Source: a phage
DNA: 64,000 nt
Reading direction: 5' to 3' (one strand)
Sequence record: PZ445134.1
Made by a program: the position numbers and the translations under genes. This document shows positions 28,691-49,973 of this stretch, one piece after another. How positions within the stretch are numbered: position 1 is the first letter of the stretch; each line of letters starts with the position of its first letter. A model generated the notes under the pieces. It did no database searches and was not told the DNA's origin. It saw only the letters and a program-made list of their open reading frames with translations.

Positions 28691-29692
28691 TTATTTCAGT
28701 AAAGTAACTTCCGAGATTTCCTCCCAACCATCTTTATCAGTTGAAATAAAATCTGCTACGTAAAGAGCCGTACGTAATGATACATTGCGAAGACGAGATA
28801 CGTTAGCCTTCATCCAGGACAATGCTTTATACGTTTCTGCATCTGTCAGACCACGTTTCTGCATCATGTCAGTAGATAATATTACATCTTCAACTCGAAC
28901 CATAATCTCTTCATTAGAGTGTACTCCAAGGTCGAGATACACTGAACGAGATACTAAAGCTTGAAGGTGCGGGGCAAGCTTCGAACCGCGTTCTAACTCT
29001 TTATCGATATCAACGTTTGTAATGAAAACGATAGTACCTTCAAACTCAAATTCTTTATCAATACCCTTATCATCGAGATAAGATGACGCAGTGCTCCAGC
29101 AAACTTTGCGTTTATCTCCGGTATCTAATGCTGCTTTAAGAAGGTTCAAGATGTCCATATCTGAGAATACGTCAACGTCGTCGATTAAGAGAACGCTGTC
29201 TGCATCACGGTTGAGCCAAAGTTGTTCGTAAAGGCCAATACCGGAGATTTTACCATTAATGCTTTTGTATTTGATGAAACCATTATCATTAGCATTATTA
29301 AGTGCTTTATCCAGAGAATACGTCTTACCAATACCAGCTGCACCTGAAATAATGAGTGAACGAATTTTGCCATCGATAATGCCATTCGTCATCATGTTCA
29401 TTACTTTAAAGCGTTTGTTGATACGAGTTTTCATATCTTCAGTGCTTTCAACAACTGAAACTGGTGACGTCTCAGCTCCTTCCATTACGATGTCTGATTT
29501 GAAGACCCATACTCCACGTTCAGAACCATCAATCATAACGAAAATTTTACCATCACCTAAGTGGGAACATTCAGGATTAAGCTTTGCCGGAAACCATGTC
29601 TTTGTGGCAACATAAGAACCAGAGATTTCGTTATTACGATAGATACCTTTTTTGATTTGAACGTTGAACATTTTATTCTCCAATTTACTCAT
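28691..29692 (-). CDS. P-loop ATPase (AAA-like)
   Basis: 333 aa; Walker A GAAGIGKT, Walker B LLIDDVD. Confidence 0.65.
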   Translation of the reverse strand: MSKLENKMFNVQIKKGIYRNNEISGSYVATKTWFPAKLNPECSHLGDGKIFVMIDGSERGVWVFKSDIVMEGAETSPVSVVESTEDMKTRINKRFKVMNMMTNGIIDGKIRSLIISGAAGIGKTYSLDKALNNANDNGFIKYKSINGKISGIGLYEQLWLNRDADSVLLIDDVDVFSDMDILNLLKAALDTGDKRKVCWSTASSYLDDKGIDKEFEFEGTIVFITNVDIDKELERGSKLAPHLQALVSRSVYLDLGVHSNEEIMVRVEDVILSTDMMQKRGLTDAETYKALSWMKANVSRLRNVSLRTALYVADFISTDKDGWEEISEVTLLK

Positions 29693-29740: not shown

Positions 29741-29959
29741 TTATTTGCGACGAGATTTTTTGGTAAGAGGTTGAAAGAACACTGCTTTACCTGCAGGAGT
29801 CAAAGTAACTCGTAATGCATTACCGATTCCCAAGGATGCTTTAACAAGACCTTTAGATTTCAGTTCACCGAATGCTTGACGTTGGTCTGCATCACGAGTG
29901 TTAACCATAAGACCTTTATCACCAGCTTCACGAATCATTTCTAACATTTTGGTTTTCAT
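29741..29959 (-). CDS. hypothetical protein
   Basis: Start at internal ATG (MKTKMLEM) with GAGGAG SD. Confidence 0.45.
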   Translation of the reverse strand: MKTKMLEMIREAGDKGLMVNTRDADQRQAFGELKSKGLVKASLGIGNALRVTLTPAGKAVFFQPLTKKSRRK

Positions 29960-30063
29960 TTTGTTCTCCTCTTGTTTTGATAGGTCTATAATAACATATC
30001 CTAAAAGTATGTACACTACTTTTTAAAAATATTTTGACCCCCTAAAGGGCCCTAAGGCCCTTA

Positions 30064-31053
30064 TCATTTATAGTATGAATTGTGGTTTTCTAAGTAGACT
30101 TGCTCAAGGAAGTCATCCCAGAAACTCATATCTACTTTTTGCTGCATACCATTCTTGGAAGCTTGTTCTGACGCATGTTCAACTTGGTCAACGATATCTT
30201 CTAGGAATTCTTGTACAGTTTTAAACGTATGTTTACCAAGCTTAACATCGAGAATAAATGGAGCATCCTGAAGTGGGTAAACCAGGTCGCCGGTTTTGTA
30301 AATTTCCAATAGTTGAAGTCCACCGCGACATGCATGACTCAGTGCTTTCCAGTCAATACCTTCGTTAGCTTCTGCCTTACGAGCACGTTCACCATAGTTC
30401 TCTTCCAGTTTAACCAGGATGGCATTGAACTCTTTATTGGTTAATGTGTCTTGGAATTTACGGTCCAACAGATTATAGAATGTTTGCTTACCTGTTTTCT
30501 CGTTTTCGGTTTCAACCCATGAAGCAAATTCACCTACAGGCAGAACATTCTTCATATGTGATAAACGAATTACTGCACCATTATCAAAGTATTGTCCCCA
30601 TTCATTAGAACGTTTAAGGGCTTGTCGAAGAACAGCCAGTCGAGAACCCTTGACACCATATTTAGAAGCTTGCTTACGGACATACCCTAAATAAGATTTC
30701 ATGTTAGTAGTATAGAAACGAGACCTGTTATCTTGAATATACTTCCACACGTCAGGCAAATCAGATTTAACTACTAAACTTGGTGGAGTGTGAAGCATAT
30801 CTAATGCGACAGTTTCACCATCCGCAGCTAGTTTAAAGAAATATTTGAGACTATACAACTCATGGTCCACGTCGTCTTTTGTGTTCTTAGAAGATGTGTT
30901 ATTCGTGTTCTTGCTCATATGTTCTTTAACGTTACCGGTCAAGATGTCACGAGCATGAGGGACATAAATTTCTTTAAAATCGACGTCAGATTCAGGAGTA
31001 GACGTTCCATAAAGGTGGCTACCAAAGTAGCCTTTCATAATTGTTTTCATCAT
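30064..31053 (-). CDS. nucleotidyltransferase-fold protein (Pol-beta superfamily)
   Basis: 329 aa; N-terminal GSHLYGTSTPESDVDF (GS-x9-[DE]-x-D-x-D NTase signature). Confidence 0.55.
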   Translation of the reverse strand: MMKTIMKGYFGSHLYGTSTPESDVDFKEIYVPHARDILTGNVKEHMSKNTNNTSSKNTKDDVDHELYSLKYFFKLAADGETVALDMLHTPPSLVVKSDLPDVWKYIQDNRSRFYTTNMKSYLGYVRKQASKYGVKGSRLAVLRQALKRSNEWGQYFDNGAVIRLSHMKNVLPVGEFASWVETENEKTGKQTFYNLLDRKFQDTLTNKEFNAILVKLEENYGERARKAEANEGIDWKALSHACRGGLQLLEIYKTGDLVYPLQDAPFILDVKLGKHTFKTVQEFLEDIVDQVEHASEQASKNGMQQKVDMSFWDDFLEQVYLENHNSYYK

Positions 31054-31523
31054 TTAGCCTTATATTCAAGAGTAGGACAGACTTTTTCTTTACGAGCTTT
31101 AAGGTATTCACCTATTAATGATTTCTTACGTTCAATAGGTTCAAGTCCATTTTTAATTCGTTCTTGGTTTTGTGCAATGAACTCAATTTCTTTATAATAT
31201 TTTCTGTCGTTATATTTGTCTAACAACCAAGACGGACCAATTACCAACACGGTAGCAATAAAAGCCATGACTGCTACAATTAAAATGCCTACACCAATTG
31301 AGGCTGGAACTAATGTCCATAGACTGCTAAAAACAAAGAATTTAGTTAAAATTTCCTGGCCAATGATTGTTACTGCTGCTAAAATCGCAAATCCAATAAT
31401 TGAAACAGCCAATACTGGGATTAACGTTTTCCAAAAATAAGCACACAACGTTTTCGGGCGATTCCATGTACTATTGAACGCGGCATAAATTTTAAAGTGC
31501 CAAGAGTTTTCATTGATAATCAT
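31050..31523 (-). CDS. membrane protein
   Basis: 157 aa with multiple hydrophobic helices. Confidence 0.55.
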   Translation of the reverse strand: MIINENSWHFKIYAAFNSTWNRPKTLCAYFWKTLIPVLAVSIIGFAILAAVTIIGQEILTKFFVFSSLWTLVPASIGVGILIVAVMAFIATVLVIGPSWLLDKYNDRKYYKEIEFIAQNQERIKNGLEPIERKKSLIGEYLKARKEKVCPTLEYKAK

Positions 31524-31532
31524 AATAATTCC

Positions 31533-32063
31533 TTATTTCAAAGTCGGGATAATAGAATCAAGATAAGCTTTAAGAGCAACTGCTTCATCTTTGTCTAATG
31601 TAACGATATGTTGACGAAGGTCATCAATTTGACGAATAACTACGACATCACCATCTTCATAAGAAGGATTAACGCCTAAGACCGTTGTAGAGTCAGGGTT
31701 GGCTGGATTTGTAATAAAAGCATTACGGCATTTAGCCCATTGAAGTTTGGCCTTTTTGGCTGTTTCAGATTCCACGAATTCTTTCACCTTAGTGACGAAT
31801 GTTTTCCAATTATTAATAGAAAAACATTCGTCTTCAGTTTCGATATTAACACCACTATAAAGTCCATGATAAAAACGAACTTGAAGGTCTTCGTCAATGT
31901 TAATTACAGATGCATGGCCTGGTGGATTGAGTTTCAAAATCTTGTCAAGTTCCATAGGAAGAATAGTAGCAGCATCATCTTCTTGTGTCAGAACATACAC
32001 ATAACCACGTTTTTCGATACATAAATCACCAAACAACTCGGTTGTTTCAATTACAGTTTTCAT
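31533..32063 (-). CDS. hypothetical protein
   Basis: Start at ATG 32063 (MKTVIETT); ORF-track start 32075 is TTG. Confidence 0.55.
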   Translation of the reverse strand: MKTVIETTELFGDLCIEKRGYVYVLTQEDDAATILPMELDKILKLNPPGHASVINIDEDLQVRFYHGLYSGVNIETEDECFSINNWKTFVTKVKEFVESETAKKAKLQWAKCRNAFITNPANPDSTTVLGVNPSYEDGDVVVIRQIDDLRQHIVTLDKDEAVALKAYLDSIIPTLK

Positions 32064-32064
32064 A

Positions 32065-32244
32065 TTATTCACCAATTAAAGTTTCAACAAAATTCACCAA
32101 AGCATTCTGACAAGCATCAACCTGATTTTCATAAAAGTCTACATTATCATTTACCGCATGATAAGCTACATCATTCAAATCTGAATCAGCTTCGCGCAAG
32201 TCACGAATAAGGTCCATCAATTTATTAGCTTGTTCACGGGTCAT
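32065..32244 (-). CDS. small hypothetical protein (~59 aa), coordinates approximate
   Basis: Hand translation MTREQANKLMDLIRDLREADSDLNDVAYHAVNDNVDFYENQ...; stop abuts downstream start (TAATATG). Confidence 0.3.
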   Translation of the reverse strand: MTREQANKLMDLIRDLREADSDLNDVAYHAVNDNVDFYENQVDACQNALVNFVETLIGE

Positions 32245-49816: not shown

Positions 49817-49891
49817 TGGTATCCCGCCCTGGGATCGAACCAGGACCGCAAACTTAGAAGGATCGTATGCTATCCATTACACCAGCGGGAT
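49817..49891 (-). tRNA. tRNA-Arg (anticodon UCU)
   Basis: Hand-folded: acceptor AUCCCGC/GCGGGAU, T-arm CCUGG-UUCGAUC-CCAGG, anticodon loop CUUCUAA, D-loop with GG, encoded CCA. Confidence 0.75.
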
Positions 49892-49896
49892 GTAGT

Positions 49897-49973
49897 TGGT
49901 GACCCCGACCAGATTTGAACTGGTAACCTTTCCCTTATGAGGGGACTGCTGCTAACCATTGAGCTACAGGGCC
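49897..49973 (-). tRNA. tRNA with CAU anticodon (Met or Ile2)
   Basis: Hand-folded: acceptor GGCCCUG/CGGGGUC (two G-U), T-arm ACCAG-UUCAAAU-CUGGU, anticodon loop CUCAUAA, encoded CCA. Confidence 0.65.

What the first reader, a model, noticed from the sequence alone, without database searches (positions are those of the whole stretch)
30064..31053. Nucleotidyltransferase-fold protein of unknown role
The N-terminal GSHLYGTSTPESDVDF matches the minimal Pol-beta-type NTase signature. Proteins of this fold in phages include cyclic-nucleotide synthase mimics, toxin-antitoxin antitoxins and nucleic-acid end modifiers. It has its own early promoter and is not a T4 core gene that I recognise.
Basis: inference. 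Interest (0 to 1): 0.5.

Follow-up and report, generated by a model that had tools for sequence, protein, structure and literature searches.

The report
Phage T4 NrdC.11-type RNA-repair nucleotidyltransferase

Summary
The ORF is real: window 30064..31053 on the minus strand, 329 aa. The quoted motif sits at residues 11-26.

- **Identity.** The window is an RB69-like Mosigvirus. The protein is 78% identical to T4 NrdC.11 and 100% identical to database entries.
- **Published function.** A December 2025 preprint shows that Pseudomonas RlaP enzymes add 1-2 NMPs to RNA 3'-OH ends, and it names T4 NrdC.11 as a family member.
- **New context evidence.** Of 80 cellular loci encoding NrdC.11-like proteins, 20 carry RtcB, RtcA, Pnkp, Hen1, Ro60 or T4-type Pnkp/Rnl1 within 6 kb. 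In 21 of the 70 loci with enough downstream sequence, a canonical RlaP gene follows directly.
- **Phage context.** RB69 encodes Pnkp, Rnl1 and Rnl2, but 55-82 kb away.
- **Promoter claim.** The "own early promoter" is not supported, because the upstream ORF overlaps the start codon. The T4 transcript is nevertheless classed as early.

Verdict: a known family member, with an untested but directly testable counter-defence role.

The parts
30064..31053 (-). nrdC.11 ortholog CDS, 329 aa plus stop; RlaP-family (PF10127) Pol-beta-type nucleotidyltransferase
   Evidence: ORF list and translation. 78% identical over the full length to T4 NrdC.11. Corresponds to RB69 AAP76005.1. Pfam and PHROG hits.
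30976..31023 (-). Residues 11-26, GSHLYGTSTPESDVDF: the hG[GS] loop (G11, S12) and the first two metal-binding carboxylates (D23, D25)
   Evidence: G11 is invariant and S12, D23, D25 are at least 90% conserved in 141 diverse homologs. In the profile-profile comparison they align with SGS...DYDV of canonical RlaP.
30865..30873 (-). Residues 61-63, D-V-D, on predicted strand 62-68; D63 is the likely third catalytic carboxylate
   Evidence: D61 and D63 are at least 90% conserved. The strand assignment comes from the AF2 model. The hhalign alignment places this segment opposite the conserved '..D..' strand segment of canonical RlaP. Assigning the third carboxylate is inference.
30799..30801 (-). 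D85 in the GETVALDMLH motif, a conserved acidic residue that lines up with the conserved 'EW' glutamate of canonical RlaP
   Evidence: Conservation in A1; alignment to A3.
30640..30684 (-). Residues 124-138, YVRKQASKYGVKGSR: a conserved basic/aromatic helix at the start of the helical domain, a candidate NTP or RNA contact
   Evidence: Y124, Q128, K131, Y132 (invariant), G136 and R138 are conserved. Helix 119-132 in the model. The functional role is inferred.
30439..30576 (-). Residues ~160-205: a three-stranded beta subdomain not covered by any match to canonical RlaP, whose members are shorter (about 255-277 aa)
   Evidence: Strands 177-184, 188-195 and 198-201 in the AF2 model. The Pfam and hhalign matches stop near residues 161 and 131 respectively. 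Canonical neighbours are 252-277 aa.
30325..30354 (-). Residues 234-243, DWKALSHACR: the signature motif of the NrdC.11-type clade in the C-terminal helical domain
   Evidence: D234, W235, K236, A237, H240, A241 are conserved and R243 is invariant. The locus-finding tool chose this motif as its search pattern.
30036..30062 (-). GC-rich stem-loop directly after the stop codon, a likely transcript end or stabiliser, followed by a promoter-like site for the next gene (30015..29988)
   Evidence: Terminator-like hits. MFE -13.6 kcal/mol but z-score only -1.16. T4 has a stronger 8-bp hairpin plus T-run at the equivalent position after nrdC.11.
31050..31523 (-). Context: upstream 157-aa membrane-protein ORF (RB69ORF104c type) whose TGA overlaps the nrdC.11 ATG, which suggests co-transcription and coupled translation
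31194..31222 (-). Only promoter-like site near the gene (TAGACA-17-TATTAT, 10/12), inside the upstream ORF about 140 nt before the ATG; its significance is not established
   Evidence: the number of sites in the region does not exceed that in shuffled sequence.

Best explanation
The gene encodes the Mosigvirus ortholog of T4 NrdC.11, a two-domain Pol-beta-superfamily nucleotidyltransferase of the RlaP family (PF10127).

Proposed mechanism. The carboxylates D23, D25 and D63 (with D85 nearby) would hold two divalent metal ions, probably Mn2+. The enzyme would transfer an NMP from an NTP, without a template, onto the 3'-OH of a broken RNA, adding one or two nucleotides.

Proposed role in the infected cell. 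This would restore nucleotides that host anticodon nucleases of the RloC type excise from tRNA anticodon loops. The phage's own Pnkp (PseT) and 5'-phosphate RNA ligases (Rnl1/Rnl2) could then reseal a full-length, partly functional tRNA. The enzyme would thus be a third, optional arm of the T4-type tRNA repair counter-defence.

Shown here: the ORF, orthology to T4 NrdC.11, family membership, conserved catalytic residues, the NTase fold, the RNA-repair gene neighbourhoods of cellular relatives, and the presence of the ligase and kinase genes in the RB69 genome.

Taken from the literature: RNA 3'-end addition by distant family members, and early expression and dispensability of the gene in T4.

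Inferred: that this clade has the same chemistry, and that tRNA damaged by nucleotide-excising nucleases is the in vivo substrate.
For: Orthology: 78% identity over the full length to T4 NrdC.11, with conserved synteny (nrdC.10 downstream, mobD.1 upstream).

Family: PF10127 E=6.3e-13, above the curated cutoff. hhalign of the 141-sequence clade profile against canonical RlaP gives probability 94%, E=1.3e-7, over residues 2-131. When the whole window was searched with the clade profile, the canonical RlaP profile and RNA-repair seed proteins, this ORF was the only RlaP-type match.

Catalytic residues are conserved.

Biochemistry of the family: Pseudomonas RlaP adds 1-2 NMPs to RNA 3'-OH, not to DNA or protein. 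It prefers Mn2+ and rescues aminoacylation of a tRNA lacking one anticodon-loop nucleotide. The same preprint names T4 NrdC.11 as an RlaP member, in sequence-similarity cluster 5 (PMC12776372).

Context, tested here: of 80 cellular loci encoding NrdC.11-like proteins, 20 have RNA-repair genes within 6 kb: RtcB 9, Hen1 8, Pnkp 8, Ro60 4, T4-type Pnkp 3, RtcA 2, Rnl1 1 (verified by Pfam).
- L029: Ro60 - RtcB - RtcA - NrdC.11-like - RlaP - Hen1.
- L008: NrdC.11-like - NT5C - T4-type Pnkp - Rnl1-type ligase.
- Two viral contigs have Rnl1- or Rnl2-type ligases 2-6 kb away.

RB69 encodes rnlB, pseT and rnlA. These are 5'-phosphate ligases, which can accept the 3'-OH product.

RloC's wobble-nucleotide excision is described as a lesion expected to defeat plain phage tRNA repair (PMC3458546).

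In T4 the gene's RNA and protein are both assigned temporal classes, early and middle. Its deletion is tolerated in the laboratory, as expected for a counter-defence gene.
Against: - No enzymatic or genetic data exist for NrdC.11 or any member of its clade. The characterised enzymes belong to a different cluster, and detectable similarity covers only the N-terminal ~130 residues.
- In this phage group the gene is not next to any RNA ligase or kinase. None lies in the 64-kb window, and in RB69 they are 55-82 kb away.
- In bacteria the NrdC.11-type gene often accompanies a canonical RlaP rather than replacing it. This suggests the two are not functionally identical.
- The biochemical source is a non-peer-reviewed preprint. 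Its authors state that the in vivo role is unproven.
- The PfRlaP crystal structure was not found in the PDB copy, so the two-domain architectures could not be superposed.
Confidence: 0.6

Rival explanations
1. It is an RNA 3'-end nucleotidyltransferase with a purpose other than anticodon-loop repair. Examples: repairing or completing tRNA 3' ends, or tailing host or phage transcripts to change their stability.
For: Canonical RlaP labelled rRNA-sized, tRNA-sized and fragment-sized E. coli RNAs with all four NTPs, so substrate choice is loose. The gene is unlinked to ligase genes in T4-like phages. It lies in an early region that also holds the mRNA endonuclease gene regB.
Against: Cellular relatives sit specifically beside end-healing and sealing enzymes (RtcB, Pnkp/Hen1, T4-type Pnkp plus Rnl1), which points to break repair rather than tailing. 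Characterised RlaP stops after 1-2 nucleotides and prefers the broken-loop 3' end over the acceptor 3' end.
Confidence: 0.15
2. It is a HalB-like, template-independent (possibly protein-primed) oligonucleotide synthase. Its product would interfere with host nucleotide- or oligonucleotide-gated immunity, for example by replenishing an inhibitory signal such as the Hailong oligodeoxyadenylate.
Against: The similarity is confined to the NTase core, at 16% identity. No sequence-level match to HalB appears even with the clade profile. No PADLOC defence model matches. The gene neighbourhoods of relatives are RNA-repair operons; no membrane-effector family stood out among the neighbours scanned. HalB is 217 aa and has no counterpart of this protein's additional C-terminal regions.
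Confidence: 0.07
3. It is a minimal-NTase-type antitoxin, a protein NMP-transferase, or a small-molecule (aminoglycoside-type) nucleotidyltransferase.
For: Foldseek lists kanamycin NTase/ANT(4'), LinB and an MNT antitoxin among the weak hits.
Against: Those hits have E around 1e-3 to 1e-1 and TM-scores of at most 0.3-0.4, reflecting the shared core plus a helical domain. No HEPN or other toxin gene is adjacent. Canonical RlaP did not label proteins. A drug-resistance enzyme has no obvious use in a lytic phage.
Confidence: 0.05

Closest known systems
Phage T4 NrdC.11 (UniProt P39242; NP_049709.1, RefSeq 'nucleotidyltransferase')
   Same: 78% identical over the full length, with the same neighbours (nrdC.10 downstream, mobD.1 upstream) and a stem-loop after the stop codon. 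The two genes are orthologs.
   Different: The T4 protein is 336 aa, with small indels in the 150-170 region. T4 has the homing endonuclease gene mobD directly upstream, where this phage has a 157-aa membrane-protein ORF. This phage also has an extra 72-aa ORF between nrdC.11 and nrdC.10.
Canonical RlaP (PF10127), e.g. Pseudomonas fluorescens / P. aeruginosa RlaP characterised in PMC12776372
   Same: Same Pfam family. The hG[GS], DxD, third Asp and a further acidic residue are conserved, and the architecture is an NTase domain plus a helical domain. Relatives are embedded in RtcB/RtcA and Pnkp/Hen1 operons.
   Different: Detectable similarity covers only the first ~130 residues. The NrdC.11 clade is about 60-75 aa longer, with a loop carrying conserved N57, a beta subdomain at ~160-205 and its own C-terminal motif DWKAxSHAxR. 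In 21 of 70 cellular loci it sits beside a canonical RlaP rather than replacing it. Its activity is untested.
Hailong HalB (PDB 9dbh), an oligodeoxyadenylate-synthesising NTase
   Different: Only 16% identity and no sequence-level relationship. HalB is 217 aa, is described as a homotetramer and works with the HalA channel. In the window the NTase's immediate neighbours gave no Pfam match to a HalA-type effector, and the neighbourhoods of relatives are RNA repair operons.
T4 tRNA repair pathway (Pnkp/PseT plus Rnl1, countering PrrC)
   Same: It is the proposed functional partner system. RB69 carries pseT, rnlA and rnlB. In locus L008 an NrdC.11-like gene lies in one cluster with T4-type Pnkp and Rnl1.
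   Different: The classical pathway heals and seals a simple nick. NrdC.11 would add back excised nucleotides, a step never demonstrated for any phage.

Membership tests
Pol-beta superfamily nucleotidyltransferase fold | hG[GS] motif followed by [DE]h[DE]h on the next strand | tested here: met
   F10-G11-S12 and D23-V-D25-F. G11 is invariant and S12, D23, D25 are at least 90% conserved in 141 homologs.
Pol-beta superfamily nucleotidyltransferase fold | Third conserved carboxylate on a neighbouring beta strand | tested here: met
   D61 and D63 are at least 90% conserved on predicted strand 62-68 and align with the corresponding conserved Asp-containing segment of canonical RlaP. Which residue binds the metal is inferred, because model coordinates could not be inspected.
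Pol-beta superfamily nucleotidyltransferase fold | Three-dimensional alpha/beta NTase core | tested here: met
RlaP family (Pfam PF10127) | Sequence score above the curated family threshold | tested here: met
   49.4 bits against a cutoff of 23, E=6.3e-13. The precomputed Pfam label of all close homologs is PF10127. Profile-profile comparison with canonical RlaP gives probability 94%.
RlaP family (Pfam PF10127) | Gene neighbourhood with RNA ligases and RNA-repair genes (the origin of the family's name) | tested here: inconclusive
   Met for cellular relatives of this clade: 20 of 80 loci have RtcB, RtcA, Pnkp, Hen1, Ro60 or Rnl1 within 6 kb. Met for two viral contigs. Not met locally in this phage: no ligase or kinase in the 64-kb window, and in RB69 these genes are 55-82 kb away.
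RlaP family (Pfam PF10127) | N-terminal NTase domain plus C-terminal helical domain forming an RNA/NTP cleft (PfRlaP crystal structure) | tested here: inconclusive
   The model has an NTase domain followed by long helices, in line with the description. The PfRlaP structure was not found in the PDB copy and afdb50 was unavailable, so no superposition was possible. The extra beta subdomain is a difference.
RlaP family (Pfam PF10127) | Adds 1-2 NMPs to RNA 3'-OH, Mn2+-preferring, not active on DNA or protein | not testable with these tools
   Known only for Pseudomonas enzymes.
T4 NrdC.11 orthologous group | Full-length high identity and conserved position in the nrdC-tk early region | tested here: met
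   78% identity, 329 against 336 aa. Position confirmed by the RB69 and T4 annotations. 1539 phage records hold a homolog, almost all of them T4-like phages.
CD-NTase / cGAS-like cyclic-nucleotide synthases or their mimics | Match to CD-NTase/SMODS models or structures | tested here: not met
MNT-HEPN type toxin-antitoxin antitoxin | Small (~100-150 aa) NTase encoded next to a HEPN toxin | tested here: not met
   The protein is 329 aa with two domains. The neighbours have no HEPN domain. The MNT structure is only a weak hit (E=0.13).
Hailong HalB | Sequence relationship to HalB and a partner HalA channel gene | tested here: not met

The most novel reading that the evidence does not exclude
NrdC.11-type enzymes are a distinct second RlaP subfamily with chemistry or specificity that differs from canonical RlaP.

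Evidence that they are distinct: in cellular RNA-repair operons they are encoded directly upstream of a canonical RlaP (21 of 70 loci). They carry an extra beta subdomain and a private C-terminal motif.

Possible meaning: the two could act as a pair, or in sequence. For example, one could restore a defined nucleotide, or create an end compatible with RtcB, which is the open problem raised by the RlaP preprint.

T4-like phages would then have kept only the NrdC.11-type half, as the missing third component that lets Pnkp plus Rnl1/Rnl2 defeat nucleotide-excising anticodon nucleases such as RloC.
Probability: 0.25. Interest if true: 0.55.

Novelty: already known. Interest (0 to 1): 0.3.

Why it matters
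T4's Pnkp/Rnl1 tRNA repair pathway is the textbook phage counter-defence against anticodon nucleases. RloC-type nucleases, which also excise the wobble nucleotide, have been described as a lesion expected to impede that repair.

If NrdC.11 fills in the missing nucleotide, the arms race gains one more documented step. A gene found in about 1500 sequenced T4-like phages would then have a function. The experiment is simple: plate an nrdC.11 deletion mutant on RloC-expressing hosts, and run a labelled-NTP assay on gapped tRNA.

As a scan result, however, this is a re-discovery. The protein is identical to database entries. RefSeq already calls it a nucleotidyltransferase, and a 2025 preprint already assigns T4 NrdC.11 to the RlaP family.

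Tried and rejected
- Sequence searches of the PDB with the protein and with the 141-sequence profile gave only chance-level hits. The PfRlaP structure could therefore not be used.
- The afdb50 fold library was unavailable.
- NCBIfam gave no hits for the gene or four of its neighbours. PADLOC gave none for the gene.
- The first homolog search returned only near-identical phage proteins. Diversity came from the representative-cluster search instead.
- The sigma-70-type promoter scan was not above the shuffled background in either the window or T4, so no promoter is claimed.
- The stem-loop after the stop codon folds at -13.6 kcal/mol but with a z-score of only -1.16. I keep it as a positional feature only because T4 has a stronger hairpin at the same place.
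- I tested whether the phage neighbours (NrdC.8, NrdC.9, NrdC.10, the 72-aa ORF, the membrane ORF, MobD.1, Tk.1) travel with NrdC.11-like genes in cellular genomes. None does, so no multi-gene phage 'system' is proposed.
- Burroughs & Aravind 2016 (which named RlaP) and the Miller 2003 T4 genome review are not held in the library. I could not check whether the NrdC.11-like/RlaP gene pair or a mapped T4 promoter has already been described.
- Rejected readings: CD-NTase mimic, MNT antitoxin and aminoglycoside NTase (see the membership tests).

Full report
**1. The observation**

Window 30064..31053 holds one uninterrupted ORF on the minus strand. It encodes 329 aa beginning MMKTIMKGYFGSHLYGTSTPESDVDF.

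The match to nucleotidyltransferases is not a chance short-motif match:
- Pfam PF10127 (RlaP, "RNA repair pathway DNA polymerase beta family") scores 49.4 bits against a curated cutoff of 23, E=6.3e-13.
- PHROG 388 "nucleotidyltransferase" matches end to end at E=1.9e-126.
- A HMMER scan of 1.84 billion cluster representatives finds 3219 relatives at E<=1e-3 and 743 at E<=1e-30.

**2. What the sequence is**

The surrounding 3.5 kb is 96-97% identical to RB69-group (Mosigvirus) phages. In RB69 the same gene is annotated nrdC.11 (AAP76005.1). It lies between RB69ORF104c/mobD.1 upstream and RB69ORF102c/nrdC.10 downstream.

The protein is 78% identical over its full length to T4 NrdC.11. RefSeq now labels that T4 protein (NP_049709.1) "nucleotidyltransferase". 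A 100% identical protein is already in public databases (P0001).

tblastn finds a homolog in 1539 of 50,697 phage records, almost all of them T4-like phages of enterobacteria, Aeromonas, Acinetobacter and Vibrio. It is an accessory one:
- A T4 deletion spanning nrdC.11-mobD.3 is viable (PMC9825161).
- A 159,752-bp record labelled phage T4 (OL964745), about 9 kb shorter than the reference, matches only the last 39 codons (H55).

**3. Fold and active site**

An alignment with 140 diverse relatives (33-52% identity) gave these conserved positions:
- Invariant: G11, Y132, R243.
- At least 90% conserved: S12, D23, D25, N57, D61, D63, D85, Y124, Q128, K131, R138, D234, W235, K236, H240 and others.

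AlphaFold2 run on this alignment gave mean pLDDT 94.9 and pTM 0.87. The model has four parts:
- an N-terminal alpha/beta domain carrying G11-S12, D23/D25 (strand 24-31) and D61/D63 (strand 62-68);
- helices 119-155;
- a small three-stranded sheet at 177-201;
- long C-terminal helices 206-328.

Structure comparisons agree with an NTase fold:
- Foldseek's top PDB hits are kanamycin nucleotidyltransferase/ANT(4'), 3c18 and HalB, followed by Tam41, LinB and an MNT antitoxin.
- 37 predicted viral structures match at E<=1e-3, many of them named nucleotidyltransferase.

**4. Which nucleotidyltransferase**

A profile-profile comparison of the NrdC.11-type clade with ten canonical RlaP proteins gives probability 94%, E=1.3e-7, over residues 2-131. 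It lines up GS with SGS, D23/D25 with DYD, and the D63 strand segment and D85 with the corresponding conserved Asp and Glu segments of canonical RlaP.

The literature names the family:
- Iyer et al. 2021 state that RlaP NTases are predicted to restore nucleotides lost from RNA ends before ligation, and that their distribution in jumbo phages mirrors that of RNA ligases (PMC7824862).
- A December 2025 preprint (Carruthers, Fatma and Huang, PMC12776372) characterises two Pseudomonas RlaP enzymes. They add one or two NMPs (or dNMPs) to RNA 3'-OH ends, but not to DNA or protein. They prefer Mn2+ and favour the broken anticodon-loop end. They partly rescue aminoacylation of a tRNA lacking one loop nucleotide.
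- The same preprint places "T4NrdC.11" in cluster 5 of the PF10127 similarity network, labelled as of unknown function.

**5. Independent test of the RNA-repair link for this clade**

I fetched 80 bacterial and archaeal loci encoding NrdC.11-like proteins (33-52% identity). I searched their flanks with seed proteins whose identities I confirmed by Pfam.

Twenty loci carry RNA-repair genes within 6 kb:

| Gene | Loci |
|---|---|
| RtcB | 9 |
| Hen1 | 8 |
| bacterial Pnkp (kinase-phosphatase-ligase) | 8 |
| Ro60/TROVE | 4 |
| T4-type Pnkp | 3 |
| RtcA | 2 |
| Rnl1-type ligase | 1 |

Examples:
- L029 (Nitrosospira): Ro60 - RtcB - RtcA - NrdC.11-like - canonical RlaP - Hen1 - MoxR AAA - DUF2201, with a Pnkp-like ORF at the locus edge.
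- L055: Hen1 - Pnkp - NrdC.11-like - RlaP.
- L008: NrdC.11-like - NT5C-like - T4-type Pnkp - Rnl1-type ligase.
- Two viral contigs (L159, L149) have Rnl1- or Rnl2-type ligases 2-6 kb from the gene.

No formal background control was run. In my judgement, a single-copy gene such as rtcB would rarely fall within 12 kb of an arbitrary gene, so these counts look like a real association.

A second pattern emerged. In 21 of the 70 loci with at least 800 nt downstream, a canonical ~255-277 aa RlaP gene follows immediately on the same strand, often overlapping. The papers I could read do not mention this pairing.

**6. Context in the phage**

- The 64-kb window contains no RNA ligase, Pnkp or second RlaP.
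- RB69 does encode rnlB (110,950-111,948), pseT (135,229-136,128) and rnlA (138,082-139,206), which lie 55-82 kb from nrdC.11.
- These are 5'-phosphate ligases. The preprint notes that such ligases are chemically compatible with the 3'-OH product of RlaP.
- None of the phage neighbours of nrdC.11 co-occurs with NrdC.11-like genes in cellular loci, so no local multi-gene system is proposed.

**7. Expression signals**

- The upstream 157-aa membrane ORF (31050..31523) ends in a TGA that overlaps the ATG. In T4, mobD overlaps the start by 17 nt.
- The best promoter-like site (TAGACA-17-TATTAT, 31222..31194) lies inside that upstream ORF. The scan total does not exceed shuffled sequence (15 found, 16.0 expected). 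T4 has no similarly placed site. "Its own early promoter" is therefore unsupported.
- Early expression itself fits T4 omics data: RNA class early, protein class middle (PMC9697503 supplement).
- A GC-rich stem-loop follows the stop codon (30036..30062; -13.6 kcal/mol, z-score -1.16). T4 has a stronger hairpin with a T-run at the same place, followed by a promoter-like site for nrdC.10. This suggests nrdC.11 ends a transcription unit.

**8. Mechanism proposed**

- Shown here: the ORF, orthology to T4 NrdC.11, PF10127 membership, conserved catalytic residues, the NTase fold, the RNA-repair neighbourhoods of cellular relatives, and the presence of the partner genes in the RB69 genome.
- From the literature: RNA 3'-end addition by distant family members. 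[quoted passage not shown] Rnl1 or Rnl2 can then seal a full-length anticodon loop, and a fraction of the products would be functional.

Confidence is about 0.95 for "RlaP-family NTase" and about 0.6 for this mechanism and role.

**9. Rivals**

- RNA 3'-end addition for another purpose, such as acceptor-end repair or transcript tailing (0.15).
- A HalB-like oligonucleotide synthase interfering with host signalling (0.07). HalB is the best structural hit, but there is no sequence link, no HalA-type partner was identified, and the relatives' neighbourhoods are RNA repair.
- An antitoxin, protein NMP-transferase or small-molecule NTase (0.05). There is no HEPN partner, the structural hits are weak, and canonical RlaP does not label protein.

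**10. Novelty and score**

The protein, its fold and its family assignment are already public, so this is a re-discovery. What remains open is the in vivo role of NrdC.11. That question is directly testable and would interest people working on phage-host RNA conflicts, though the answer would not surprise them.

The gene pairing with canonical RlaP, and the clade-specific beta subdomain and DWKAxSHAxR motif, hint that this subfamily is not merely a redundant RlaP. That is the most novel reading the evidence leaves open (probability about 0.25).

Overall interest: 0.3.

Noticed in passing
GenBank records hit (e.g. Escherichia phages AV112, PHB12, FL18; Shigella phage ESh27): Orthologs of this nucleotidyltransferase are annotated 'thioredoxin' (one 'glutaredoxin') in many phage records. 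The name has apparently spread from the locus label nrdC.11. The protein has no thioredoxin domain.
   Followed up: partly
Loci L009, L012, L017, L026, L027, L029, L030, L034, L037, L039, L048, L049, L050, L055, L058, L063, L068, L073, L076, L079, L081: In bacterial genomes the NrdC.11-like gene is followed directly, on the same strand and often overlapping, by a canonical ~255-277 aa RlaP (PF10127) gene. This holds in 21 of the 70 loci with enough downstream sequence. The conserved paralog pair is not mentioned in the papers I could read.
   Followed up: partly
L029:1558-12057 (Nitrosospira sp. contig CAADGK010000054.1): An unusually complete RNA-repair operon: Ro60/TROVE - RtcB - RtcA - NrdC.11-like NTase - RlaP - Hen1 - MoxR-type AAA - DUF2201 (VWA/metallopeptidase), with a Pnkp-like ORF beginning at the locus edge.
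   Followed up: partly
window 28691..29692 (-): NrdC.10 ortholog (333 aa). It has weak P-loop hits (AAA_22, AAA_16, nSTAND3) and a weak C-terminal HTH_37 hit, all below Pfam thresholds. Function is unknown. It does not co-occur with NrdC.11-like genes outside phages.
   Followed up: partly
window 29741..29959 (-): A 72-aa basic ORF (RB69ORF102c type) lies between nrdC.11 and nrdC.10. It is absent from T4 and found in only 5 of 79 related viral loci. A stem-loop and a promoter-like site (TGTACA-16-TATTAT, 30015..29988) precede it.
   Followed up: no
window 31050..31523 (-), compared with T4 NC_000866 56429..57208: T4 has the HNH homing endonuclease gene mobD directly upstream of nrdC.11. This phage has a 157-aa predicted membrane protein there instead (present in 43 of 79 related viral loci). 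In both phages the upstream gene overlaps the nrdC.11 start codon.
   Followed up: partly
window 31533..32075 (-): The MobD.1 ortholog matches Pfam PF24449/PF24448 ('y05I-like putative transcription factor', N- and C-terminal domains) at E=7e-40 and 2.5e-18.
   Followed up: no
window 49817..49891 (-) and 49897..49973 (-): Two phage tRNA genes, tRNA-Arg(TCT) and tRNA-Met(CAT). They may matter for the same host-phage conflict over tRNA integrity, but they were not examined.
   Followed up: no
Phage records PP400778.1 (FL15) and PP418985.1 (UPWr_E1), hits H51 and H52: In these T4-like phages the homolog matches in two pieces covering only 67% of the protein, at ~47% identity. The gene may be split, interrupted or decayed there.
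   Followed up: no
BFVD hits (ranks 37, 39, 47): Baculovirus HE65 proteins and several giant-virus 'nucleotidyltransferase' models appear among the weaker structural matches to the model (E from about 1e-3 to 8e-2). This hints that the fold is spread across very different virus groups.
   Followed up: no
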